Notes: generated by a model not told the origin, from the sequence alone. A stretch of DNA of 64,000 nucleotides from an uncultured Propionivibrio sp. (GCA_964575415.1 CAZNQL010000017.1:127-64126), one strand, 5' to 3'; positions 4,693 through 34,924 are shown, numbered from the stretch's first letter. Translations and numbers: made by a program.

Positions 4693-6201
4693 ATGTCACA
4701 AGCCGGACAGTCATTCATCGTCATCAACGATACGACGCTACGCGACGGCGAGCAATCGGCCGGGGTCGCTTTCACCCTCGACGAAAAGCTGGCCATCGCA
4801 CGCCATCTTGCCGCGCTGGGCGTGCCCGAACTCGAAGTCGGCATTCCGGCGATGGGCGAGGCCGAGCGCGAGAGCATCCGCGCCGTGGCCGCTCTGGGAC
4901 TGTCGTCGCGCCTGATGGTGTGGAGCCGCATGCACGAGAGCGACATCGCCGCCTGCTGCGGACTGGGGGCGCACCTGATCGACATTTCTGTGCCTTCGTC
5001 GGATCAACACCTCGCCCACAAGTTGCGCCGTGACCGCGCCTGGTTGCTGTCGCGCATCGGCTACCACATTTCGCTTGCCCTCGACGCCGGCTTCGAAGTC
5101 TGCATCGGCGCCGAGGATGCCTCGCGCGCCGATCCGGATTTCCTTGCACAAATCGCCGAAGCGGCACAGCGTGCCGGGGCGCGGCGGATTCGCTTCGCCG
5201 ATACGCTCGGCGTGCTCGATCCGTTCGCCGTCGCCGAGCGCATCGCGCGTCTGCGTGCGACAACCGACCTCGAAATCGAAATGCACGCCCACGACGACCT
5301 CGGTCTGGCGACGGCCAACACGCTGGCGGCGGTGCGTGCTGGCGCCACGCATGTCAATACCACGGTCAACGGCCTCGGCGAGCGTGCCGGCAACGCCGCG
5401 CTCGAAGAAGTCGTGCATGGATTGCACCAGTGCTACGGCATCGAAACCGGCGTCGATCTGCGCCAGTTCCCGGAAGTGTCGGCGCTGGTCGCGCAGGCGT
5501 CTGGACGGCCGGTGGCCTGGCAGAAGAGCCTCGTCGGTGAGGGGGTGTTCACGCACGAAGCCGGCATCCATGTCGACGGCCTCCTGAAACATCCCGACAA
5601 CTATCAGGGTTTCGACCCGCGCCTCGTCGGCCGCGACCACCGCGTCGTCCTCGGCAAGCATTCGGGCAAAGGCGGTGTGCAGGCCGTGTTTTCGATGCTC
5701 GGCAAGACGGTCGGCGATGAAGAGGCAGAAACGCTGGTCGGCGAAATTCGCGACTTCGTCAATCGTTGCAAGCGACCGTCGTCGCCGGAAGAGTTGTTGT
5801 TCATGCTGGCGGAGCAGCAATCGAAGGCCCGCGGCCAATTGTCCCCACTGATTTCAACCGAGAAGGAATGCACCATGAGCCTCGATGCCACCGACTTTGA
5901 GCAGGAAGTTGCCGAACTGGAATCCGCCGAGGATTTTCTCGAATATTTCAACATCGAATACGACCCAGCGGTCGTCCAGGTCAACCGGCTGCATATCCTG
6001 CAGCGTTTCCACGACTACCTGGCCCGGCGCGCTGAAACGCAGACGCTGACCTACGCCGAATACCGGACAAGCCTCGGCATGGCTTATGAGGATTTCGTCC
6101 GTTCCGATGCGGTGACCGAGAAAGTGTTCAAGGTCTTCAAACGGGCGTCGGGCATCGCAACCGTTCCGCTGTCCGCCATCGGCCGCGCGACGAGGCACTG
6201 A
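4693..6201 (+). CDS. nifV: Homocitrate synthase NifV, reading in frame into NifW
   Basis: [47 protein letters not shown]; RBS AGGAGG before ATG 4693; no stop before nifW. Confidence 0.92.
5875..6201 (+). CDS. nifW: Nitrogenase-stabilising protein NifW (own RBS and ATG inside the nifV frame)
   Basis: [35 protein letters not shown]...EKVFKVF; AGAAGGA at 5861-5867. Confidence 0.9.
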
Positions 6202-6665
6202 TGCAAACGCAATTCGATCTCGGCGATTCGGTGCGTGTCGTGCGCAATGTGCGCAACGACGGCACCTATCCCGGCGCGGCCATGGGCGATCTCCTGGTGC
6301 GTCTCGGCAGCGTCGGCACCGTTGTCGATATCGGCACCTTCCTCATGGATCAGATCATCTATACCGTGCACTTTCTCGATGACGACAAGATGGTCGGTTG
6401 CCGCGAGGAAGAAGTGATCGGCGCCGACGATCCCTGGGTGCCCAGCCTGTTCGAATCGCGCGAAAAAGTACGCGCGGGCAAGTTGCTCAAGCTCAGCGAG
6501 GATGCGCAAATACCGATCGGCGCCATCGGCGAAGTCCTGAAAGTCCTGCGCGACGAGGCCTCGGCTACCGTTCTTTACCATATGCATTTCGACTGCCTGC
6601 CGGGCCGCACGCTGGCCGTGCCCGAGTCGGCGCTTTCACCCCTGAGGGACGACCGTGCAGACTGA
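6201..6665 (+). CDS. nifZ: NifZ
   Basis: GDSVRVVRNVRNDGTYPG...GTFLMDQIIYTVHF...VGCREEE. Confidence 0.92.
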   Translation: MQTQFDLGDSVRVVRNVRNDGTYPGAAMGDLLVRLGSVGTVVDIGTFLMDQIIYTVHFLDDDKMVGCREEEVIGADDPWVPSLFESREKVRAGKLLKLSEDAQIPIGAIGEVLKVLRDEASATVLYHMHFDCLPGRTLAVPESALSPLRDDRAD

Positions 6666-6675
6666 AAGGAAAGCT

Positions 6676-7513
6676 GTGGATACCCCATCCTTATCTCCGC
6701 CTCAAGCTGGCGCAGGAGCTGTTCCGGAAAGCGCCCGACAAGCTCGAACCGGAGGAATGTAAACGCGTCGACGACGTCGTTGCGCGGCAGTTGCAGATCG
6801 AACGGCGCATCCTGTCCACGCCGGAAGCGGCGCAGGTCGTCCTGCCGTCGTCGTCGGTCGAGCAATCGCTGGGCGAGATTCGTCAGCGTTATCTGACCGA
6901 CGAGGAATTCGTCGCCGATCTCAACGTCTCCGGGCTGGACCCGGTCAGCCTCGCCGATGCGATCCGACGCGACTTGACCGTCGACGCCGTGCTCGACCGC
7001 ATCGCCAGCCGGGTTGCCGAAGTGACGGAAACCGACGTCGAAATCTTCTACCTGATGCACCGCGAACGCTTCAAGCGCCCGGAATTCCGCCGCTTCAAGC
7101 ACATTCTCGTCACCATCAACGAAAACATGGCCGGTAGCGATCGCCAGTCGGCGCGCGAAAAGATCGACGCCATCCGCGAACGGCTGCTCAAATCGCCCGG
7201 ACGCTTTGCCGAGCAGGCACTGAAACATTCCGAATGTCCGACGGCAACGAACGGCGGCGAGTTGGGCACGGTCAAGCGCGGCCAGTTGTTTCCAGAACTC
7301 GAACCGGCTGCCTTTGCGCTCGACGTTGAAGCGCTGTCGGAAGTGCTCGAATCGCCGATCGGTTTTCACCTGATGTGCTGCGAGGCCATCGAAGAAGCCC
7401 GCGAACTGCCGCTACCGGATGTGCGGGCAAAAATCCGCCAGCAATTGAGCGAAACGCGCCGCCGCTCGGTGCAGAAAACCTGGGTCGCCAGATTGTTCAA
7501 GCAGGAAGGTTGA
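6676..7513 (+). CDS. nifM: NifM parvulin-type PPIase; the likely start GTG 6676 is one base out of frame
   Basis: HPYLRLKLA, KHILVTINE, ALKHSECPTATNGGELG, VLESPIGFHL; position after nifZ. Confidence 0.85.
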
Positions 7514-7570
7514 TCAGGTTGCAGAGGCTAGCTGCGTGTAAGGTGTTTTGGCCGTCGGTCTGGGTGAGAA

Positions 7571-7641
7571 GGACAGAAAACGACCCTCAATAGCCATCCA
7601 TTGACCCAACGCCGAGCGACCGCTGCTTGACCAATGCTGCC
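7571..7641. repeat. Degenerate member of the recombinase-associated palindromic motif family
   Basis: Reverse strand reads GGCAGCATTGGTCAA...TTGGGTCAAT...GAGGGTCGTTTTCTGTCC, similar to motifs at 27426-27450 and 30972-30995. Confidence 0.5.
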
Positions 7642-7653
7642 AATAAATAACGT

Positions 7654-8265
7654 TCAGCGCGATGCAGAGGTGGCTATCTTTGCTGCTAAACCAAGTAGCA
7701 CTACTCCAACGACTCGGTCAAACCAAACCAAGCGGGATCCGAGCCAATCAAGGACGCGACGTGATGAAAACATAGCCGACACGATGCCGAACCAGAGGAA
7801 AGATTCCCCAACTAGCAGGACCCAGAGAAGCGCCGTATCAACGGTCCCCAGCTCTGGGGTAAGAACCTGCGAGAGAATCGAGCCGAAATAGAGCATTGCT
7901 TTTGGGTTCAATAGGTTGGTCAGGAACCCTGAAACGAATGCTTTTCCGACTTGACCGCGTGATTGCATCTCCGGCAATTGCCCCTTGGAGCGCAAACACT
8001 GAATGCCCAGCCACGCCAGATACATTGCACCAGTCACGGACAATAAAGTGGAAAGCCCTGGCAATGCCGCCAAGACCAAAGACAGTCCGAACGCGCAGAC
8101 CAATATATAGACTCCGATTGCGGCTGCAACACCTGCTGCTGCCCAGAGGCCAGTCTGGCGACCGGATACGATCGAGAGGCGAGTGACAATTGCGAAGTCA
8201 GGTCCGGGTGAAATCAAGGCGACTGCATGGATAGCCAGCACAAGGGTTAGAGCTTCCCAAGACAT
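7654..8265 (-). CDS. LysE/RhtB-family amino-acid exporter
   Basis: ISPGPDFAIV and GFLTNLLNPKAMLYF motifs; hydrophobic. Confidence 0.9.
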   Translation of the reverse strand: MSWEALTLVLAIHAVALISPGPDFAIVTRLSIVSGRQTGLWAAAGVAAAIGVYILVCAFGLSLVLAALPGLSTLLSVTGAMYLAWLGIQCLRSKGQLPEMQSRGQVGKAFVSGFLTNLLNPKAMLYFGSILSQVLTPELGTVDTALLWVLLVGESFLWFGIVSAMFSSRRVLDWLGSRLVWFDRVVGVVLLGLAAKIATSASR

Positions 8266-8398
8266 GTTGATTCTCTGAATAACAAGGAGCGGGTATTTTG
8301 AACGCTTCGGGGTGAAATAGGCAAAACAGTCATCGAAGCACGTGGCATTCTGTGGTCAGCATCAGTCAAAAACCTGCCTTTGCTACACGCTAGCAAAG

Positions 8399-8418
8399 AT
8401 GGCTGGAATTGGCCTATT
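8399..8418. repeat. 20-bp motif shared with the recombinase island
   Basis: ATGGCTGGAATTGGCCTATT is 19/20 identical to the reverse complement of 29333-29352. Confidence 0.7.
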
Positions 8419-8500
8419 TCACGACTGTATCGCTACCGGCGCAGAAATGCCATAACAATAACAAGGCGCGCAACGGTTTGCTGGCCGTGCGTCTTTTGAA

Positions 8501-25775: not shown

Positions 25776-26531
25776 TCAGATTATCAACCGATTCCGGATC
25801 AAGGTTCCCGCATTCTGCAGCCTTGGAATGGTCGAGGCCAGATTGAGCCCGGTTTCCTGGAATAAGCGTTCGGTCCGGGCGATCAATTCCTCGAGCGAGA
25901 CGTCAACCGGTTCACCGCCGTTGGCGAAGGCGATGCGGTTGCCGCTATCCACCGACGGAAAGACCAGCGCGCGGTCATCAAAGGCCGCGGCGATGCGTTC
26001 CGAGCTGGCCTCGAAGCCCGCCGAGCGGCCGAGCAGATTGATCGACAGCAGTCCCTCGTCGCTCAGGCGGGAGCGGCAGGCCTGGTAGAAGGGCAAGGTG
26101 TCGAGCACGCCGGCGCGCCCTTCCTTGTCGAAACCATCGACGAGGATGTAATCGTAGGATTTTCCGTCCTTGAGCATGTATTCCGCGCCGTCGCCGATGA
26201 CGATTCGCAACCGGCGCGGGTCGTCCGGCAGCTTGAAGTGGAGCAGGGCGACGGTCTCGACCTTGGGGTCGATTTCGACGACGGTGATCCGGGTGTCGGG
26301 AAACTTGTGATAAATGAATTTCGCCAGCGAGCCGGCACCGAGGCCGATGAGCAGAGCTTCGCGCGGCCAGGGCGGATCGCGCAGCAGCAGGCCGGCCATC
26401 ATTTCGCGGGTATAGGCCAGTTCCAGATCGACCGGGCGCTGGATGCGCATCGCGCCCTGGATCCAGTCGCGGCTGAAGTGCAGATAACGGACTCCGGATT
26501 TCTCACTGATGTCGATGGCGTTGTCGGACAT
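25776..26531 (-). CDS. Spermidine synthase-like SAM methyltransferase
   Basis: IQGAMRI, LAYTREM, IGLGAGSL, VEIDP, DYILVDGF. Confidence 0.85.
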   Translation of the reverse strand: MSDNAIDISEKSGVRYLHFSRDWIQGAMRIQRPVDLELAYTREMMAGLLLRDPPWPREALLIGLGAGSLAKFIYHKFPDTRITVVEIDPKVETVALLHFKLPDDPRRLRIVIGDGAEYMLKDGKSYDYILVDGFDKEGRAGVLDTLPFYQACRSRLSDEGLLSINLLGRSAGFEASSERIAAAFDDRALVFPSVDSGNRIAFANGGEPVDVSLEELIARTERLFQETGLNLASTIPRLQNAGTLIRNRLII

Positions 26532-26637
26532 GCGGCAGGGCTGGCTTCGAATAGAGATAAAGACGAATCTTAACGCCTGCGCGCGCCATCCGGAATACTT
26601 GCGCGGCATGTCGTTGTTTCCGGTGTATCCTGCGCGG

Positions 26638-27422
26638 ATGACGAAAACGACGCCCACGACAACTTCTGCCACTCCCTTTGCCAGCCTGACGCCCGATTCC
26701 ATGCTCGATGCCCTGGAGAGCATCGGACTGACTCCCGATGGCCGTCTGCTTGCGCTCAACAGTTACGAGAACCGCGTTTATCAGGTGTTCATGGACGACG
26801 GCCGGCCGCTGATCGTCAAGTTCTACCGCGCCGGGCGCTGGTCGGACGCGGCGATCCTCGAAGAGCATGCGTTTACGACCGAGCTTGCCGAGCGGGAATT
26901 GCCGGTCGTCGCGCCACGGCCGATCAACGGGCAGACCCTGCATCATTTTGGCGACTTGCGTTTCGCCGTTTTCCCCCGGCAGGGCGGGCGCCCGAATTCG
27001 ACCGCGCCAGCAGCTTCGCCACGCTACGCCTGCATGGCGATTGCCACGCCGGCAACGTCCTCTGGCAGGAGGAGAGTGGCCCCTGCTTCGTCGACTTCGA
27101 CGATGCGCGCATGGGGCCGGCGGTGCAGGACCTGTGGATGCTGCTCTCCGGCGAACGTGCGGATCAGGTTCGCCAGTTGGCCGACGTACTCGCCGGCTAC
27201 GAGGACTTTTTCGAGTTCGACGCACGCGAACTGCATCTCGTCGAAGCCTTGCGCACGCTGCGCCTGATTCACTACGCCGGCTGGCTGGCGCGGCGCTGGG
27301 ACGATCCGGCGTTCCCCGCCGCTTTCCCCTGGTTCAACACCCAGCGCTATTGGCAGGACCGCATCCTCGAATTGCGTGAACAGATCGCCCTGATGGACGA
27401 ACCGCCGCTGTGGGTGGGGTGA
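26638..27422 (+). pseudogene. srkA: Ser/Thr kinase SrkA/RdoA (YihE) with a frameshift and an internal deletion
   Basis: LNSYENRVY, KFYR.GRWS, EEH in frame 1; LRLHGDCH.GNVL, DFDD, PAVQDLWM, RWDDPAFP in another frame; switch near 26990; central segment missing. Confidence 0.85.
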
Positions 27423-27460
27423 ACGGGCTGGATTTCGGCCAAAGCTGCCGGTAGCCTTCC

Positions 27461-27501
27461 CAATGAAAGATGGCCGGTTCTGATACCAGACCGGCCATTT
27501 G
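27461..27501. repeat. Left end site (palindrome ATGGCCGGT..ACCGGCCAT)
   Basis: Reverse complement matches 31036-31076 at 33/41; 7 of the 8 mismatches form the central spacer. Confidence 0.85.
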
Positions 27502-27882
27502 CTTTGTAAGAGAGGTTTCAATCAAGCTACGTCGACTTCTGACCCCCAAGAGCCTTCATCGTCTTGATGGCTGTGCGGCAAGTGTCCCGCATTCAGCATC
27601 CCTTGCCATTCATATGGCGCCACATTGCGGAGTTGATTGCACGACTTTCCATGTGCAGAACTAATCATTCAATCCCCATTCTTGCTGTGGGTCAAGACTA
27701 GACATTTTCGGCAGGAGGAGTAGTCTATGACCGTGCCTGATGCGTAGTAGATCGGGCCACCCAGTAACAACGCGACTGGAGGCAAGATGGTCGAATGTCC
27801 GCCGCAGTGCGTGATGATTGCGTAGTACCCAAACGGCGAATGCCGAATACCTTGGTCAATCGCTACGAGGTCAAGGATTTAC

Positions 27883-27952
27883 GAAGCCCATGTCCGACCG
27901 GCATGGGCTTCACGCATTATGCGTCCCCGAATTGAAGCGGAACGTCCGCTTC
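27883..27952. repeat. Two perfect palindromes in the ORF-free left arm of the island
   Basis: GAAGCCCATG-N9-CATGGGCTTC (27883-27911) and GAAGCGGA-ACG-TCCGCTTC (27934-27952). Confidence 0.7.
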
Positions 27953-28124
27953 ACAAGTCAGCAAACTCACACACACGACCCTGATCCGACCTTCAGAGTT
28001 TGTAAAAGCGGACAATCAACTCTGAAAAATGATCGAAAAACCGCGTAACATGAGGAAGGCATGCGCTATGACTGCCGACATCGACCCTAGCACCACCAAC
28101 TCACTCCTTTAAACGAATACATCA

Positions 28125-28445
28125 ATGAAAAAGCAACTATTTAACTACGCACTAATTTGCATATTGCTTACGTTTGCCTCGGTGTCAAAAGCAGAAGACA
28201 TCGACTACCCCCCGGCAATTCAGAGGCTCAAAGATTATAATGGCATGTCGATTATAAAAAAATTTCCTGCGGTTAGTGGACTAACTGGATGGGTTGTCAA
28301 AGATAACGAAACAAACAAGTATGCCATTATGTATTTCACACAGGACGGTCAAAGTATAGTCGCAGGCATGCTTGTCGACATTAAAGGCAATAATTTAACG
28401 AAAACATACGCGGATAAATATTTAACAAAACTACGGAGTGAATGA
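28125..28445 (+). CDS. Secreted protein resembling a stand-alone DsbG N-terminal dimerisation domain
   Basis: Signal peptide to SKA/ED; PAIQRL..GMSIIKKF.A.SGLTGW..IMYFTQDG..I.AG.L.D.KGNNLT; no CXXC. Confidence 0.65.
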   Translation: MKKQLFNYALICILLTFASVSKAEDIDYPPAIQRLKDYNGMSIIKKFPAVSGLTGWVVKDNETNKYAIMYFTQDGQSIVAGMLVDIKGNNLTKTYADKYLTKLRSE

Positions 28446-28639
28446 CTGTGCCCTGATGGACAAAGCACAGCTACACTCCGATAGTTTTTAGTTTGCTCAG
28501 GACAATGTCTGCTTTTTTTTTGGGCGAGTAAGCAAGTGTCCGCTCGTGGCCGATTGTACGCATTCGGCATCCGAAGGGAAAGCTGCCTTTGCACTTTAGG
28601 TGAAAAATCAGACTCCGATTAACAAAGAAGGAGTCTGTC

Positions 28640-29254
28640 ATGGAATCAAATAGATACCGCGAACCCTGGAATAAAAGAAAGTTGGTCGGTCAGAAGCCCC
28701 CGTTAAAGCCAAAAGACATCTGGGCGATCCGGATCAATCTGCAAAACACAGGCCAGATAAGAGGCCTAGCCATGTTCAATCTGGCGATTGACAGCAAGCT
28801 TCGTGGTTGTGACCTCGTCAGTCTCCGCGTTCGTGACATAACCCACGGTAACCAAGTCTTGACCCGTGCGATGGTCGTCCAAAGGAAAACACAGCGGCCT
28901 GTTCAGTTTGAGCTGACCGAACCGACACGGGCATCGGTTACAGCGTGGATCGAAAAAGCCAAGCTGAGGCAGGATCAATACCTTTTCCCCTGCCGCCTCT
29001 CAAAATCACCGCACGTCTCTACAAGGCAATATGCACGAATAGTCCATCAGTGGGTTGCTGCTGCGGGTCTTGATCCCAGTGTTTATGGTACGCACACAAT
29101 GGGCCGAACCAAGGCCACGTTAATCTATAAGCGTACTAAGAACCTGAGGGCAGTACAGATTCTGCTGGGGCACACAAAGCTTGAGAGCACCGTTCGATAC
29201 CTTGGAATCGAGGTTGATGACGCGCTTGAAATCTCTGAACAAACTGAGATTTAG
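28640..29254 (+). CDS. Minimal (204 aa) tyrosine recombinase, catalytic domain only
   Basis: AIDSKLRGCDL (R), QRKT (K), HTMGR (HxxR altered to G), LLGH, TVRYL (Y). Confidence 0.92.
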   Translation: MESNRYREPWNKRKLVGQKPPLKPKDIWAIRINLQNTGQIRGLAMFNLAIDSKLRGCDLVSLRVRDITHGNQVLTRAMVVQRKTQRPVQFELTEPTRASVTAWIEKAKLRQDQYLFPCRLSKSPHVSTRQYARIVHQWVAAAGLDPSVYGTHTMGRTKATLIYKRTKNLRAVQILLGHTKLESTVRYLGIEVDDALEISEQTEI

Positions 29255-29465
29255 CGTCCTGAATCACGGTCGCGCGCAGGATACGACATTTTCTTCGTGC
29301 GACCGCTTTCCGGCAAGATTCCAAATGCGTACAATCGGCCAATTCCAGCCATTCAGAATATTTCTCGTAAGCGGACGTCAGCCTCCTGTACGCATTATTA
29401 ACAATTACTTGACAATTCTGCTTCCGATCAACTGTAGGTAATTATTATTCACAAAGCGAGGGTTT

Positions 29466-29798
29466 ATGATTGAACAACAAGAAATGAAGCGACTCACCAC
29501 TGGCAACATCTTCAAATTGCTTCTGCTTGGAACTTCTTGCTCAATTATTCCCTTTTCTCTGGTAATGGGCATTCTCAGCATTTTTGGGGCATCAACAGTT
29601 ACATGGAATGATCAGCCTTTAACTGGAGTTACAGGCCTAATCGCGTCCCCCTTTATCGGGGCGTTTATTGCCTTGCTGCTTTCTGGAATATTTGGCCTCT
29701 TTATCGCATTAGGGCTATGGTTCTACTCCCGCTTCAAACCTCTAACCGTTCAATATTGGTGTGTTGATTCTCAAGCTGAGAGCAAGGTCACCACCTAA
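29466..29798 (+). CDS. Small membrane protein, cassette-like ORF
   Basis: Two to three hydrophobic helices; stop TAA lies within ACCTAAC. Confidence 0.7.
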   Translation: MIEQQEMKRLTTGNIFKLLLLGTSCSIIPFSLVMGILSIFGASTVTWNDQPLTGVTGLIASPFIGAFIALLLSGIFGLFIALGLWFYSRFKPLTVQYWCVDSQAESKVTT

Positions 29799-29874
29799 CA
29801 TGGCGGTTAAGGACGCTCTCTCTGGTCGCCGGGACTCGCTGCAAGTGGAGCGTCCCTCACCTTGACCGTTGAAG
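29793..29874 (+). other. Integron attC-like recombination site
   Basis: R'' ACCTAAC ... R' GTTGAAG; internal stem GGACGCTC/GAGCGTCC and CGGTTAA/TTGACCG; 82 bp. Confidence 0.6.
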
Positions 29875-30075
29875 GTCCGTTTTACTCACTGGTGACAGAC
29901 TGCCTTTGGTCGAAAGTATGCATTGACGGTATTTGGAAGCCGCCGTTAGACTGATGGAATACAGCCCAAAGCTGAAACCGGTCAGAAGCAGCCATATCGC
30001 CAATTCTTCTTAAGCTGCCATTTCAACGTTATTTAGTTCATCCATAAACGCCAAAAAGGATGTGTAAGCTCGGCC

Positions 30076-30888
30076 ATGAAAAAAACTCTCCTTACTTTGC
30101 TTGCCTTACTTCCTCTTACCTTCGTAGCCAAAGAAGCAACCTCAGGAACAATGCCACCTGAATGGTGTGAGGAAAAATGGCAAGCCGAGACGTCTGCGCT
30201 TTACCCTGAGACGGGACAGTCTGTAAATGTTGCTGAGACGTGGCTGAAATACAAAGACCAGTGCGAAGGAACTGTTACGTTCGAGAGCAGGCTTGCAATT
30301 GCATATGCAATGAATGGTCAATTCGATAACGCAAGGAATGTTTCCCAGTCAATAACAGCCAAGGATAGCAAGTATGAATACTTGGCAACCTTTTCAGGTA
30401 TAGCTATCGACTACTTTGGGATTATGCACAAAGACCGAATTTCTGAATTTGATGTAAGAACCATAAAAGACAAGTTGGTTGCCTATGTCGGCAAATATCC
30501 AGATTTTCCTGACGCAAATGGACTGCTTGGCGGGCTGTATTCTATGTTGGGCGAACATCAAGCAGCTATTGCATCTTTAGAGCGCGCTAAAGATACAAAA
30601 ATGGACGCTAGTGGCGTTTATAGAAATTTAACAATCAGTCTAACTGAGGTTGGTAGATACCAAGAAGCCATAAATGCAGGAAATACTGCTTATCGTTTGA
30701 AGAAAGCTGTTACTTCTGATCAGTATTTTGCTTATGCAATAGCGAAAGCGGATGCTGGCATAGGGGACTTCAAGTCTGCCATAACTGCATTGCAAGTAAT
30801 TGCTCATAAGAAGCCAGAAGTACGGTCTGATCCGGAATTTAAGGCAACAGTTGATTTTGTGAAAAATAAACACAATACCGCCAAATAA
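30076..30888 (+). CDS. Exported TPR-like helical-repeat protein
   Basis: Signal peptide MKKTLLTLLALLP; TPR-like segments YPDFPDA..LLG.LY...G....AI..LERA and Y.NL...L...GRYQEAI. Confidence 0.7.
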   Translation: MKKTLLTLLALLPLTFVAKEATSGTMPPEWCEEKWQAETSALYPETGQSVNVAETWLKYKDQCEGTVTFESRLAIAYAMNGQFDNARNVSQSITAKDSKYEYLATFSGIAIDYFGIMHKDRISEFDVRTIKDKLVAYVGKYPDFPDANGLLGGLYSMLGEHQAAIASLERAKDTKMDASGVYRNLTISLTEVGRYQEAINAGNTAYRLKKAVTSDQYFAYAIAKADAGIGDFKSAITALQVIAHKKPEVRSDPEFKATVDFVKNKHNTAK

Positions 30889-31035
30889 AAATTGAATATG
30901 GTCGGGGAAAGCGGTCCGAGAATGCGAAGGGAAACGTTGGAGATGGACGTCTGCTTTTCTGCTAGCTGACTGACCGAAATGGGTCGATAGCCGAAGTAGC
31001 CAGCCAAAGAAGCTGACTTTTCACCGTTTAAAGTT

Positions 31036-31076
31036 CAAATGGCCGGTCTATATGTCGAACCGGCCATTTTTCATTG
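31036..31076. repeat. Right end site, inverted relative to 27461-27501
   Basis: CAAATGGCCGGTCT-atatgtc-GAACCGGCCATTTTTCATTG. Confidence 0.85.
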
Positions 31077-31256
31077 ATGACGTATCTGGCCGCAAAGGCC
31101 GAGAACCGGACGCAAACGCGCCGTTAGCGTCTCCAAATACCTTGAAGCGCATTCTTTTCTGGGATGAAAAGCAAAAAGCTAAGCTCAGATAGGCTGGCTT
31201 TGACGTGGAAGCATACCCTTGCCAAACGGCAAAGTGATGGTTGCAGGAATAGGCGC

Positions 31257-32168
31257 CTACGGGTAAGCGTGCGATTCGAAGCGGAAGAGCGCCGGTTCGT
31301 CGGTGTCGATGATGACCTTGATCCATCCCATCCACGGGTAGCCGAAGGTTTCGAGGCGGGTGAAGTTGGCGATCGGGCCTTGGCCGTCGGGGCGGCGCAG
31401 AGGATGGTCGATGCGGTGCCAGTGCGTGTCGCCATGCACGAGCAGCACCTGGCCGGGGAAGTCGAGCGTTTCCTGGCGCAGGGTTTCGAGCAGGTCGCGG
31501 AATCCGTTCTTGGCGAGGCCGGCGGCGAACAGCTTGAAGATAGGGTCGGCCTGCATGACGACGACGATGCCGGGCGCATGCTCTCGTCGCGCCAGCGCGA
31601 AGCCCTGCCGCAGCCAGTCGAGGATCGCCGGGTTGCGCGCCGCAAACTCCGGGCTGGGTTGTTTTCGGATGCCGTGATTGTTGTTCGGGCCGGGGACGTT
31701 GATCGTCAGGAAACGTACCGGTCCGAGCCGCCAGCGCAGGTTTTCCGGAAAGTCAGCGGACTGGCGTTCGACGGCGATTTTCCGTTGCCCCAGAGACTGC
31801 GGCTCGGCGAAGAAGATTTCCCGCAGCCGGTTCAGGCGTTCGACCGGGTCGTAATCACCGGCGACGAGTACCTTGCAGTCCGTCCATTCGTTGTCGCCGG
31901 GCGTGTACAGGAAAGGCACGCGCGACGAATCGAAGAGGGCCTTGCGGTCGAGCAGAATTTCGTCGCTGCATTTCGCCGAGCTGCGCTTGATGTCGCCGGC
32001 ATGGACGATGAATTCCGGCTGCTCATTCTCGATCAGCCTGAGCAGGGACGGCATTTCCCGGCGTTCGTAGTCGCTGTAGGGAACGTCGCCGATGACGGCG
32101 AACTTCCAGGTCTCGGCCTGCGCCGTGGCGGCCAGCAGCAGGCAGCACGCGGCGAGCAGCGTTTTCAT
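31257..32168 (-). CDS. Exported calcineurin-like metallophosphoesterase
   Basis: GDVPY, HAGDIK, PGDNEWTDC, HGDTH; signal peptide. Confidence 0.88.
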   Translation of the reverse strand: MKTLLAACCLLLAATAQAETWKFAVIGDVPYSDYERREMPSLLRLIENEQPEFIVHAGDIKRSSAKCSDEILLDRKALFDSSRVPFLYTPGDNEWTDCKVLVAGDYDPVERLNRLREIFFAEPQSLGQRKIAVERQSADFPENLRWRLGPVRFLTINVPGPNNNHGIRKQPSPEFAARNPAILDWLRQGFALARREHAPGIVVVMQADPIFKLFAAGLAKNGFRDLLETLRQETLDFPGQVLLVHGDTHWHRIDHPLRRPDGQGPIANFTRLETFGYPWMGWIKVIIDTDEPALFRFESHAYP

Positions 32169-32326
32169 ACTGCCCCCCCTTGTTTAACCACAGCGGCCAC
32201 GGCGAGAATCCTGATTTTTCGGCCAGTTTTTGCAGTCACCCATCGGGTGATCAATCAAGCCGGCATAAGCTCTTGGATTTTCGCCGTGTTCTCTGCGCTC
32301 GCGGTGGTTATCTGCTTTTTCCAGGT

Positions 32327-34924
32327 TCATTTTTGCAGGCGCTTCAACTCGTAAAGGGCTTCGAGCGCCTGTTTCGGCGTCAGCTCGTCGGGGTCGATGG
32401 CGTCCAGGTGTTCGAGTGCCGGATGCGCTTCGACGTCCTCGGGTTCCGGTGTGACGGGCAGCGCGGGGGCAAACAAGTCCGGCTGCGGGGAACTGGTTGC
32501 GGCGCGTTGTTCGAGTTCGCGCAATTGCCGACGCGCCGCCTTGACGACGGAGGTCGGGATGCCGGCCAGCGCCGCGACCTGGATACCGTAGCTCTGGTTG
32601 GCCGGGCCTTCCTCGACCGCGTGCAGGAAGACGATCTTCTCGCCATGCTCGACGGCGCCGAGGTGCACGTTGGCCAGTTCGGGGTATTCGCCGGCGAGCA
32701 GCGTGAGTTCGAAGTAATGCGTGGCGAACAGTGTCAGCGCGCGGTTTTTCTCGACGAGATGGCGGCAGATGGCGAAGGCCAGCGCCAGGCCGTCGAAGGT
32801 CGAGGTGCCGCGCCCGATCTCGTCCATCAGCACCAGGCTGTTGGCGGTCGCGTGGTGCAGGATCGCCGCCGACTCGGTCATTTCGACCATGAAGGTCGAA
32901 CGCCCGGAGGCGAGGTCATCGGAGGCGCCGATACGCGTGAAGATCTGGTCGAGCGGGCCGAGGACGACGCGGTTGGCCGGCACGAAGCTGCCGACGTGGG
33001 CCATCAGGGCGATCAGTGCCGTCTGCCGCATGTAGGTCGATTTACCGCCCATGTTCGGGCCGGTGATGAGCAGCAGGCGGCGGCCATCGCCCAAGCGGGT
33101 GTCGTTGGCGATGAACGATTCGCCGCCGGCCAGTTCGTTCTCGACGACTGGGTGGCGGCCGCCTTCGATCAGCAGGCCGGGCTCCGGGGAAAACTGCGGC
33201 CGGCAGTAATTGCGCGCCAGCGCCACGTCGGCGAAGGCGGCGAGCAGATCGACCTGCGCGACGGCGCGGGCGATTTCCTGCAGGCGCGGCAAATCGTCCT
33301 GCAGGGCGGCGAGCACGCCTTCGTAGAGGATCTTCTCGCGCGCCAGTGCGCGATCCTGTGCCGAGAGCGCCTTGTCTTCGAAGCTTTTCAGCTCCGGCGT
33401 GATGTAGCGCTCGGCGTTCTTCAGCGTCTGCCGGCGGCGGTAGTCGTCCGGCACCTTGTCGGCGTTGGCGTGGGTGACCTCGATGTAGAAGCCATGCACG
33501 CGGTTGTATTCGACCTTGAGGTTGGCGATGCCGGTGCGCTCGCGTTCGCGGGTTTCGAGATCGACGAGGAAGGCGCCGCAGTTGTCGTTGATGTTGCGCA
33601 GTTCGTCGAGTTCGGCGTCGAAGCCGGCGGCGATCACGTTGCCGTCGCGGATCAGCGCGTTCGGCTCGTGCAGGATGGCGCGGCCGAGCAGATCAAGCGC
33701 CGCTGCCGGGGTGTCCAGCGCGGCGATCAATTCGTCGAGCAACGGCGACGGCGAGCCGGTCAGCGGCATGCGCAGGTCGTCCAGACGATGCAAACTTTCG
33801 CGCAGGCTGGAGAGGTCGCGCGGACGCGCGGAAAAGAGCGCGATGCGGCCGGCAATACGTTCGATATCGGCAATGCCGCGCAGGGCTTGGCGGACATCGC
33901 GCTGGCGGCCGGCGCCGTCGTCGAGCAGGGCTTCGACGGCGGCTTGGCGCGCCGCCGGAATTGCCGGGTCGCGCAAGGGATGGTGCAGGGCATGGCGCAG
34001 CGCGCGCGAGCCCATCGCGGTGACGCAGGTGTCGAGCAGGCTGCACAGCGTCGGCGCCGGTTGGCCGCGCAGGGTCTCGGTGAGTTCGAGATTGCGCCGC
34101 GTGGCCGGGTCGAGGCCGAGGAAGGTCGCGTCGCGTTCGACGCTCATGGCGCGCACGTGGGGCAGGGCGCGCGCCTGGGTCGCCTGCGCGTAGCGTAGCA
34201 GGGCGCCAGCGGCGGCAATGCCGGGGCGCAGGCCGTCGGCGCCAAAGCCGGAGAGCGAGGCCGTCTTGAAGTGCGCGCACAATTCGCGTTCCGCGGCCTC
34301 GGCGTCGAAGTGCCAGTCGGGGCGGCGTGTCAGGGCTGCTTCCGGTGTGAAAGACAGTTCGAGGCTTTCTGGGAGGACGATTTCCGACGGGCGGATACGC
34401 TCGATGGTTGCCGCGAGTTTGTCGGCGCCGACCTCGCTGACGCGGAAATCGCCACTCGCTAGGTTGAGCCAGGCGAGGCCGCAGTTCTGCCGCGTGACGG
34501 CGATGGCGAGCAGCAGCACGTCGCGCTTGTCGTCGAGCAGCGCCGCGTCGGTCAGCGTGCCGGGGGTGACGATGCGCGCCACGGCGCGTTCGACCGGCCC
34601 CTTGCTCGTCGCCGGATCGCCGACCTGCTCACAGATCACCACCGATTCGCCCAGCTTGACGAGGCGGGCGATGTACTGCTCTGCGGCGTGGTACGGCACG
34701 CCGGCCATCTTGATCGGCACGCCGGCACTCTGGCCGCGCGTCGTCAGCGTGATGTCGAGCAGGCGCGCGGCCTTCTCGGCGTCCTCATAGAACAGCTCGT
34801 AGAAATCCCCCATCCGGTAGAAGAGCAGGAGGTCCGGATGCTGGGCCTTGAGGCCGAGATACTGGCGCATCATCGGGGTGTGCTTGTCCAGCCCGTCGTC
34901 GATTGGGGATGAGGTCTTCTGCAT
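32327..34924 (-). CDS. mutS: DNA mismatch repair protein MutS
   Basis: [50 protein letters not shown]. Confidence 0.98.

What the first reader, a model, noticed from the sequence alone, without database searches (positions are those of the whole stretch)
27461..31076. Inverted lox-like end sites: conserved arms, completely different 7-bp spacer
Seen: the left site read on the reverse strand is CAAATGGCCGGTCT-ggtatca-GAACCGGCCATcTTTCATTG (27461-27501). The right site is CAAATGGCCGGTCT-atatgtc-GAACCGGCCATtTTTCATTG (31036-31076). They match at 33/41, and all seven spacer bases differ. Each site is itself a palindrome, and each is followed outward by a GGC.GC..GGCCGA motif. Established: tyrosine recombinase sites (loxP, FRT, dif) are inverted arms around a 6-8 bp spacer and normally need spacer identity. 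Inference: conserved arms with a free spacer point to single-strand hairpin recognition as in attC, or to homology-independent exchange.
Basis: partly seen in the sequence, partly recalled or inferred. Interest (0 to 1): 0.75.

Follow-up and report, generated by a model that had tools for sequence, protein, structure and literature searches.

The report
Hairpin end-modules bounding a cassette island
The two palindromes are real, inverted copies of a rare ~80-130-base non-coding module that caps a 3.7-kb foreign DNA island, but DNA exchange maps to a conserved TCGGCC core about 30 bases outside each hairpin, so the variable "spacer" is only a hairpin loop.

Summary
Two 41-nt palindromes match at 33/41, and all 7 central bases differ. 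The motif occurs only three times in the 2.5-Mb genome, so it is not a REP.

The third copy has a 3-nt "spacer", and across about 30 genomes the centre follows T-CTG-N4-5-CAG. It is therefore a bulged stem-loop, not a fixed 6-8-bp crossover region.

Each hairpin belongs to a conserved module of TCGGCC box, AAGCnGnCGGTGGC arm, A-tract and hairpin. Homology between modules in unrelated genomes starts exactly at the TCGGCC box. The 0.8-kb recombinase-only unit nested in the island (28547-29341) is bounded by GGCCGA...TCGGCC, and related loci diverge exactly there. TCGGCC is flanked by inverted AGCnGnC arms. This makes it the better candidate for the lox-like crossover site, with an invariant spacer.

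The hairpin arms are another inverted pair of the same motif. Their variable positions covary, so base pairing is selected. I read the hairpin as an accessory subsite and/or bidirectional terminator.

Two points weaken the recombinase link. The window's recombinase carries Gly at the catalytic Arg (XerD R247 equivalent) and is probably inactive. Hairpin modules and recombinase genes do not co-occur genome-wide. I found no published description.

The parts
27424..27452 (+). Left candidate crossover core: arm CGGGCTGGATT, TCGGCC (27435-27440), arm AAAGCTGCCGGT
   Evidence: Sequence. Module homology in other genomes starts at this box. Inverted symmetry of the arms around TCGGCC is 44%, against 18-27% at shifted registers.
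27429..27510 (+). Left end module (TCGGCC box, arm, A-tract, hairpin); the TCGGCC side faces the host flank
   Evidence: Covariance model R1 scores 90.2 bits. The module is 79.5% identical to L027:3488-3573 in Dechloromonas hankyongensis, although the flanks there are unrelated.
27461..27501 (-). Left hairpin site as reported; stem 27470-27478/27490-27498, centre TCTGATACCAG
27555..27981 (.). 428-bp non-coding repeat just inside the left hairpin; a second copy (92% identical) lies just inside the C15 hairpin
28125..28445 (+). Cargo ORF, 106 aa, signal peptide plus DsbG/DsbC N-terminal dimerisation domain only
   Evidence: Pfam DsbC_N at E = 3.4e-5. NCBIfam DsbG at E = 3.7e-14, below the curated cut-off.
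28547..29341 (+). 795-bp recombinase-only mobile unit with 37-nt terminal inverted repeats (TGGCCGATTGTACGCA...TGCGTACAATCGGCCA)
   Evidence: Inverted repeat I2. Homology in 80 loci stops at these ends, and a 797-bp contig (L004) equals the unit. The unit is 100% identical between two Vogesella species while the flanks differ.
28640..29254 (+). 204-aa tyrosine recombinase without a core-binding domain; Gly155 (codon 29102-29104) replaces the catalytic Arg II
   Evidence: PF00589 at E = 4e-18. It reads HTMGR where 7 homologues read HTMRR. G155 aligns with XerD R247.
29466..29798 (+). Cargo ORF, 110 aa, hydrophobic, followed by an attC-like imperfect palindrome (about 29790-29875)
   Evidence: Canonical attC sites occur in related loci.
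30076..30888 (+). Cargo ORF, 270 aa, TPR-repeat protein with a signal peptide
31036..31076 (+). Right hairpin site as reported; stem 31039-31047/31059-31067, centre CTATATGTCGA, followed by TTTTT
31027..31108 (-). Right end module, inverted relative to the left one
   Evidence: Covariance model R1 scores 92.9 bits.
31088..31113 (-). Right candidate crossover core: arm GGCCGCAAA, GGCCGA (31097-31102), arm GAACCGGACGC
   Evidence: Sequence. A relative (G015) shares 31097-31224 at 82%, and that homology begins exactly at GGCCGA.
31097..31224 (+). Separate 128-nt conserved module abutting the right core; it carries a terminator-like hairpin

Best explanation
The two palindromes are the stem-loops of two inverted copies of a conserved non-coding end module. 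The core of the module is about 80 nt, and fuller copies reach about 130 nt. Its layout is TCGGCC box, AAGCnGnCGGTGGC arm, A-tract, an 11-bp stem with a bulged T and a CTG/CAG extension, then an inner inverted arm.

The two copies bound a 3.67-kb low-GC cargo segment (27436-31101). A separate 0.8-kb recombinase-only unit (28547-29341) is nested inside that segment.

The DNA joints in this mosaic lie at the TCGGCC/GGCCGA hexamers. Each hexamer is flanked by inverted AGCnGnC arms, so these are the actual lox-like cores, with an invariant, asymmetric 6-bp spacer. The island contains four such cores in alternating orientation.

The hairpin is a second, non-exchanging inverted pair of the same motif. 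Its centre is a loop, free to vary in sequence and length. It most likely serves as an accessory or architectural subsite, comparable to res sites II/III or the accessory repeats of the Tn4430 IRS. Its A-tract/stem/T-tract form also allows it to act as a bidirectional terminator that insulates the cassette.

Shown here: the anatomy, copy number, homology breakpoints, covariation, and the Arg-to-Gly change in the resident recombinase.

Inferred: that TCGGCC is the cleavage and overlap region, that the 204-aa recombinase family is the enzyme, and what the hairpin does.
For: 1. The motif is rare. It has 3 copies in the genome, all at boundaries between low-GC islands and the core genome.
2. The centre length differs within this genome, 3 against 7 nt. 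It follows T-CTG-N4-5-CAG in about 25 other betaproteobacterial copies.
3. Pairwise homology between modules in unrelated genomes begins at -33/-34, which is the CGGCC box, in more than 60 comparisons. Loci L147 and L165 share the module plus 4.2 kb at 97% identity but differ outward of the box.
4. The recombinase unit is bounded by GGCCGA...TCGGCC. Loci L020 and L022 are identical up to ...AAAGGCCGA and then diverge. Loci L049 and L051 carry units that are 100% identical, with diverged flanks.
5. 44 right ends and 39 left ends of the unit show the outward consensus TCGGCC-A..AGC.G.C. Module cores show inverted symmetry at register 0 only.
6. The invariant positions of the hairpin arms (G.C.G / C.G.C) coincide with those of the core-arm motif, while the intervening positions covary.
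7. The same architecture recurs in locus L148: two inverted modules flank 2.2 kb of low-GC cargo.
8. Relatives lack the hairpin after the orthologous flanking genes, so it belongs to the insert.
9. R1-type modules are about 300-fold denser within 6 kb of recombinase genes than in whole genomes of the family.
Against: - No recombination product was observed.
- At genome level, modules and the recombinase do not co-occur: 10 and 31 of 201 genomes, overlapping only in this genome against 1.5 expected.
- None of about 25 exact-stem modules has the recombinase within its 8-kb locus, and no conserved protein gene neighbours them.
- The inner arm at the ends of the recombinase unit (ATGCGTACAA) does not resemble the AGCnGnC arm.
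- Module homology often ends 10-12 nt inside the hairpin, so a second junction near the hairpin cannot be excluded.
- Perfect palindromy at positions outside the motif is not needed for an accessory double-stranded binding site.
- The arm motif is short and degenerate, and is not enriched genome-wide.
Confidence: 0.45

Rival explanations
1. One reading: the hairpin itself is the recombination site. The recombinase recognises it as a folded single strand, as IntI recognises attC, or exchanges strands without spacer homology. The loop is free because it is not read.
For: - The stem covaries, which is significant against shuffles and against slid controls.
- G:T and A:C mismatches are balanced, 13 against 11, which argues against selection acting only at the RNA level.
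- A conserved extrahelical T gives the hairpin polarity, as the extrahelical bases of attC do.
- The hairpin arm TGGCCGGTTCT matches the unit terminus TGGCCGGTTGT of several loci at 10/11.
- Module homology often ends just inside the hairpin.
- Canonical attC arrays share these islands.
Against: - The best-defined breakpoints are at TCGGCC, not at the hairpin.
- Sequences on both sides of the hairpin stay associated across genomes, from -34 to +96.
- There are no RYYYAAC/GTTRRRY boxes.
- Most copies are singletons without a nearby recombinase.
- There is no genome-level co-occurrence.
Confidence: 0.13
2. The hairpin is simply a strong bidirectional intrinsic terminator carried at cassette ends, or sitting between convergent genes. 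It has no role in recombination, and its conservation reflects recent spread of the module.
For: - It has a GC-rich 9-11-bp stem. An A-tract is conserved on one side, and TTTTT follows the right copy and the C15 copy.
- Both window copies face convergent flanking genes.
- In Propionivibrio dicarboxylicus a solo copy sits between convergent genes, with no TCGGCC box.
- Another core-plus-arm in the window (about 8360-8420) is followed by an unrelated, ordinary terminator-like hairpin.
- The stem covaries.
Against: - The consensus terminator scan does not call it, because the loop exceeds 8 nt and the T-tract on the left copy is weak.
- The stem has invariant G.C.G positions that match the arm motif, and the bulged T is conserved. 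A terminator needs neither.
- There is no G:U over A:C bias.
Confidence: 0.22
3. The hairpins are inert relics. They could be miniature, internally deleted derivatives of the recombinase unit (two termini back to back), or MITE-like terminal repeats of a dead element. In either case they are no longer recognised by anything.
For: - The arms resemble the unit termini.
- The resident recombinase has lost the catalytic Arg.
- Most genomes with modules lack the recombinase.
- Solo unit ends exist, at L084:5530-5573 and in L153.
Against: The stem, the bulged T and the flanking motifs are conserved across several betaproteobacterial orders, with compensatory changes. This indicates ongoing selection.
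Confidence: 0.1

Closest known systems
Acinetobacter pdif (dif) modules recombined by XerC/XerD
   Same: Cargo modules are bounded by short recombination sites in alternating, inverted orientation. The result is mosaic arrays, the modules carry no transposase, and joints fall at a short conserved core.
   Different: The core here is TCGGCC flanked by AGCnGnC arms and has no similarity to dif. A dedicated 204-aa recombinase unit is associated locally. Each site carries an adjacent stem-loop. The setting is the chromosome of Betaproteobacteria.
Integron attC sites and gene cassettes (IntI)
   Same: Both are imperfect palindromes with a variable loop and a conserved extrahelical base, attached to variable promoter-less cargo. 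True attC sites occur in the same islands.
   Different: There are no RYYYAAC/GTTRRRY boxes. No IntI is present in the genome. Copies are single or inverted pairs rather than same-orientation arrays. Breakpoints lie about 30 nt outside the hairpin.
Multi-subsite recombination sites: Tn3/gamma-delta res (sites I-III) and the Tn4430 IRS (TnpI; IR1-IR2 core plus DR1-DR2)
   Same: Several copies of one binding motif lie within about 120 bp. One inverted pair surrounds the crossover point. Further pairs with different spacing would act as accessory sites.
   Different: Binding has not been shown. The enzyme differs, being a tyrosine recombinase that lacks a core-binding domain. The accessory pair here is a perfect palindrome with covarying positions.
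loxP / FRT / dif simple core sites
   Same: They have inverted arms of 9-13 bp around a short centre. The TCGGCC core fits this geometry, with a 6-bp invariant asymmetric spacer.
FimB/FimE-type small tyrosine DNA invertases
   Same: The recombinase is about 200 aa, has almost no N-terminal domain, and sits among inverted repeats. The NCBIfam invertase model gives a weak hit at E = 0.004.
   Different: The match is far below the family cut-off. The unit behaves as a mobile 0.8-kb element present in hundreds of genomes and plasmids, not as a fixed phase switch.
REP/BIME elements and bidirectional intrinsic terminators
   Same: They are GC-rich stem-loops between convergent genes, with A/T tracts on both sides.
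   Different: There are only 3 copies per genome rather than hundreds. Specific stem positions are invariant, and the hairpin is tied to a TCGGCC box at a fixed distance.

Membership tests
lox/FRT/dif-type core site (the hairpin as crossover site) | Two inverted recombinase-binding arms of about 9-13 bp | tested here: met
   ATGGCCGGT(TC)/(AG)ACCGGCCAT.
lox/FRT/dif-type core site (the hairpin as crossover site) | Fixed 6-8-bp spacer | tested here: not met
   Within this genome the centre between the 11-nt arms is 7, 7 and 3 nt, or 11, 11 and 7 nt between the 9-nt stems.
lox/FRT/dif-type core site (the hairpin as crossover site) | Spacer identity between partner sites | tested here: not met
   0 of 7 positions are identical between the left and right copies. 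There are 19 distinct 7-mers among 25 other copies.
lox/FRT/dif-type core site (the hairpin as crossover site) | Recombination joints fall in the spacer | tested here: not met
   Homology breakpoints lie at the TCGGCC box at -34, and in some pairs 10-12 nt beyond the hairpin. None lies in the loop.
lox/FRT/dif-type core site (the TCGGCC box as crossover site) | Inverted arms around a conserved 6-8-bp overlap region that coincides with the joints | tested here: met
   TCGGCC is invariant in 35 of 37 modules. Arm symmetry is 44% at register 0 against 18-27% at shifted registers. Joints fall here.
lox/FRT/dif-type core site (the TCGGCC box as crossover site) | Binding and cleavage by the cognate tyrosine recombinase | not testable with these tools
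   This needs EMSA and cleavage assays.
Integron attC | R''/R' boxes RYYYAAC ... GTTRRRY | tested here: not met
   They are absent from both sites. Canonical examples from related loci serve for comparison.
Integron attC | Imperfect palindrome with conserved extrahelical bases and a variable loop | tested here: inconclusive
   A bulged T and a variable loop are conserved. Whether they are read as single-stranded DNA is unknown.
Integron attC | An integron integrase (IntI) in the genome | tested here: not met
   No TIGR02249 hit exceeds the cut-off in a genome that is 94.7% complete.
REP / BIME | High-copy dispersed extragenic palindrome | tested here: not met
   There are 3 copies in the own genome. 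10 of 201 family genomes carry 1-3 copies.
Intrinsic (rho-independent) terminator | GC-rich stem, short loop, and a T-tract immediately 3' | tested here: inconclusive
   The stem and TTTTT are present on the right copy and the C15 copy. The loop is 7-11 nt and the left copy has CTTTC. The scan does not call these sites.
Known RNA families (Rfam 15) | A match to any covariance model | tested here: not met
   No match at E <= 1 across 26500-32000.
Catalytically competent tyrosine recombinase (the resident gene) | The R...HxxR...H/W...Y catalytic residues | tested here: not met
   R55, H152, H178 and Y187 are present. Arg II is Gly155, where all 7 homologues have Arg and the aligned XerD residue is R247.

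The most novel reading that the evidence does not exclude
The ~130-bp modules are the attC equivalents of a second gene-cassette system that is independent of integrons. It is widespread in Betaproteobacteria and on plasmids. A 204-aa tyrosine recombinase without a core-binding domain exchanges strands at the invariant TCGGCC core. The sequence-conserved hairpin with its bulged T is read as folded single-stranded or cruciform DNA and sets strand choice and orientation, as IntI reads attC.
Probability: 0.15. Interest if true: 0.85.

Novelty: new variant of a known kind. Interest (0 to 1): 0.55.

Why it matters
If the model holds, a very common but unnamed 0.8-kb recombinase unit is the visible part of a cassette-shuffling system. 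The unit has thousands of homologues, including on 346 plasmids in PLSDB, some of them from Enterobacteriaceae. The system would be distinct from integrons and from pdif modules. It would have composite sites with one exchanging core and a structured accessory element.

That would add a new route for mosaic island formation. It would also provide a minimal tyrosine recombinase with a short, defined site that might be useful as a tool.

For annotation, the work shows that the obvious palindrome is not the joint. Island boundaries should be set at the TCGGCC boxes.

Tried and rejected
- **REP or dispersed repeat:** rejected. There are 3 copies in the genome.
- **Known RNA family:** none found.
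- **Canonical attC or integron:** no R boxes and no IntI. A simple attC heuristic on the flanks was uninformative, giving 2 hits on the inner side and 0 on the outer side.
- **Conserved host terminator of the flanking genes:** rejected. Orthologous genes in about 20 relatives lack the hairpin.
- **Clean empty site:** not found. The right-hand gene normally faces a slyD-like gene, so synteny is broken.
- **Conserved protein partner next to the modules:** none among 27 loci.
- **Genome-level co-occurrence with the recombinase:** none.
- **The module on plasmids:** no blastn hit.
- **Annotated name for the recombinase on plasmids:** only "site-specific integrase".
- **Literature:** three full-text searches found no description.
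- **Pairing between the inner GGCnGCTTTC and the outer GAAGCnGCC at the unit ends:** no covariation, so these are treated as separate motifs.
- **Genome-wide enrichment of the short arm motif:** not seen, because the motif is too degenerate.
Full report
**Observation**

They match at 33/41, and all seven central bases differ. The outward GGC.GC..GGCCGA motif is present, and the inverted repeat extends to 27430-27480 / 31057-31107.

ATGGCCGGT-N11-ACCGGCCAT is absent from 100 shuffles of the window. In the 2.5-Mb genome it has only these two palindromic hits. BLAST and half-site scans found a third copy on contig C15 (64141-64175) whose centre is 4 nt shorter: AAATGGCCGGTCT-GTA-GAACCGGCCAT. All three fold strongly as single-stranded DNA, with z-scores of -5.5 to -6.8.

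**Setting**

The sites bound a low-GC segment, 41-53% against 60-70% in the flanks. This segment lies between two convergent host genes, an APH-family gene ending at 27422 and a metallophosphoesterase gene ending at 31257. Inside the segment are:

- a 428-bp repeat that recurs next to the C15 hairpin;
- a stand-alone DsbG-N-like ORF;
- a 204-aa tyrosine recombinase;
- a small membrane ORF followed by an attC-like palindrome;
- a TPR protein.

Orthologues of both flanking genes in about 20 congeners are not followed by the hairpin, so it belongs to the insert. Named records that match the congeners' sites identify the genus as Propionivibrio.

No clean empty site exists, because the right-hand gene normally faces a slyD-like gene.

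**The recombinase unit**

The recombinase gene sits in a 795-bp unit with 37-nt terminal inverted repeats (28547-28583 / 29305-29341). In 80 loci from other genomes, DNA homology stops at exactly these ends. One 797-bp contig is the whole unit.

DNA identity between units is about 73% while protein identity is about 85%, which indicates purifying selection on the protein. Thousands of homologues exist, including on 346 plasmids, and they are annotated only as "integrase".

Two Vogesella species carry units that are 100% identical from GGCCGA to TCGGCC, with diverged flanks. Two Thiobacillus loci are identical up to ...AAAGGCCGA and then diverge. The joints are therefore at the GGCC hexamer.

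Outward of both ends, 83 unit ends share TCGGCC-A..AGC.G.C.

The window's own copy reads HTMGR where seven homologues read HTMRR. Gly155 aligns with the catalytic Arg247 of XerD. From established knowledge of tyrosine recombinases, loss of Arg II abolishes catalysis, so this copy is probably inactive.

**The hairpin module**

A covariance model of the sites finds them in:

- 3 places in this genome;
- 2 of 40 relatives;
- 10 of 201 genomes of the family, at 1-3 copies each;
- 5-7 of the 80 recombinase loci.

An exact-stem scan of 185,579 species' genomes returned about 25 betaproteobacterial copies. Most of them (about 19-21 of 25) share a TCGGCC box 34 nt upstream, and nearly all share the arm AAGCnGnCGGTGGC and the A-tract. 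Often they also carry an inner inverted arm (...GAACGACAGCTT).

Pairwise homology between modules in unrelated genomes starts at -33/-34, which is the box, and runs to between +30 and +96. No protein-coding gene is consistently adjacent.

Locus L148 repeats the window's architecture: two inverted modules flank 2.2 kb of low-GC cargo, with no recombinase.

**The centre is a loop**

Across copies the centre reads T-CTG-N4-5-CAG: a bulged T, a 3-bp stem extension and a small loop. There are 19 distinct 7-mers among 25 copies. The window's right-hand copy and the C15 copy are the deviants.

On an alignment of 46 modules, 9 of 11 stem pairs show compensatory changes. None of 500 shuffles, and no slid control, reaches the observed values. 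That alignment was fitted to the model, which is a caveat.

G, C and G at alternate stem positions are invariant, and the positions between them covary. G:T and A:C mismatches are balanced, 13 against 11. Base pairing and sequence are therefore both constrained, and there is no strand-specific RNA signature.

**The better lox-like candidate**

Around TCGGCC, the outer flank is the reverse complement of the inner arm only at register 0: 44% identity against 18-27% at shifted registers. The consensus is G.C.GCT-nn-TCGGCC-nn-AGC.G.C.

This is the canonical geometry for a tyrosine recombinase core, with an invariant and asymmetric 6-bp centre. It satisfies the spacer-identity rule that the hairpins violate.

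The island has four such cores in alternating orientation, at 27435, 28548, 29335 and 31097. Joining the two outer flanks in silico gives a GGCC-centred imperfect palindrome. A 128-nt module to the right (31097-31224) recurs in a congener, and its homology begins exactly at GGCCGA.

**What the hairpin does**

The hairpin arms, A(G/C)CnGnCATT, are the same motif as the core arms and have the same invariant positions. I therefore read the hairpin as a second, non-exchanging subsite, analogous to res II/III or the Tn4430 IRS. This is an inference.

Its A-tract/stem/T-tract form also fits a bidirectional terminator. So do a solo copy between convergent genes in P. dicarboxylicus and an unrelated terminator-like hairpin behind another core-plus-arm at about 8360-8420. 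However, the consensus terminator scan does not call the sites.

**Weak points**

- Modules and recombinase genes do not co-occur across 201 genomes. The overlap is this genome only, against 1.5 expected, even though modules are about 300-fold denser near recombinase genes.
- The enzyme assignment is therefore an inference.
- A junction just inside the hairpin cannot be excluded.

**Novelty**

There is no Rfam family and no IntI. No paper was found in three full-text searches. Earlier unchecked notes from this scan describe the same recombinase family and "CGGCCAGAAGCGGCC" sites. I reached the unit boundaries and the core independently.

Noticed in passing
window 29102-29104: The resident recombinase has GGC (Gly155) where all compared homologues have Arg, the catalytic Arg II that aligns with XerD R247. 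It also has several other unique changes at otherwise invariant positions, which suggests a decaying copy.
   Followed up: yes
L084 (G000:C15:56000-68016) 5530-8210: A second low-GC island lies on contig C15. Its left edge is a solo right terminal repeat of the recombinase unit with no gene (...GAATGAGTACAATCGGCCA|GAAGCGGACATTCG). It contains two cargo ORFs, a chimeric canonical attC pair (7498-7621) and the 428-bp repeat. Its right edge is the third hairpin.
   Followed up: partly
window 27555-27981: This 428-bp non-coding repeat has two copies in the genome (92% identical), each just inside a hairpin module. It contains a strong stem-loop, GAAGCCCATG-N9-CATGGGCTTC (27883-27911). It was not found in other loci.
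   Followed up: partly
window 31097-31224: A 128-nt conserved module starts exactly at GGCCGA. It carries an attC-like ...GCGCCGTTAGCG and a terminator-like hairpin. It is 82% identical to a copy next to a tRNA gene in a congener (L118).
   Followed up: partly
window 8360-8420: Another core-plus-arm lies here, AATAGGCCAATTCCAGCCAT on the minus strand. It matches 29333-29352 at 19/20 and is followed by an unrelated hairpin, CTTTGCTA-GCGTG-TAGCAAAG, and then GGTTTTT.
   Followed up: partly
window 26509-27422: The APH-family gene upstream is split into two overlapping frames (26509-27267 and 27111-27422). It lacks about 215 nt that are present between the corresponding parts in congeners, so it may be a pseudogene.
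   Followed up: partly
window 32181-32332: An unrelated repeat of about 150 nt has copies on at least 4 other contigs of this genome and many copies in congeners.
   Followed up: no
L027 6001-6615: The recombinase homologue in Dechloromonas hankyongensis has an in-frame stop at 6214-6216. Several other homologues in the family are truncated or carry stops.
   Followed up: no
L134, L136, L142, L143, L159, L162, L163, L166, L168, L179, L181: One alphaproteobacterial MAG carries many copies of a ~100-nt repeat containing ATGGCCGGTTC-A-AGACCGGCCAT. The stem is the same as in the window but the loop is 1 nt. This looks like a true high-copy REP-like element and is probably convergent.
   Followed up: no
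L040 8222-12411; L024; L038: Loci that hold this recombinase often also hold classical integron attC arrays (GCCTAAC...GTTAGGC, spaced about 0.5-1.3 kb apart). The recombinase unit therefore lives in or beside sedentary integron or CALIN arrays.
   Followed up: partly
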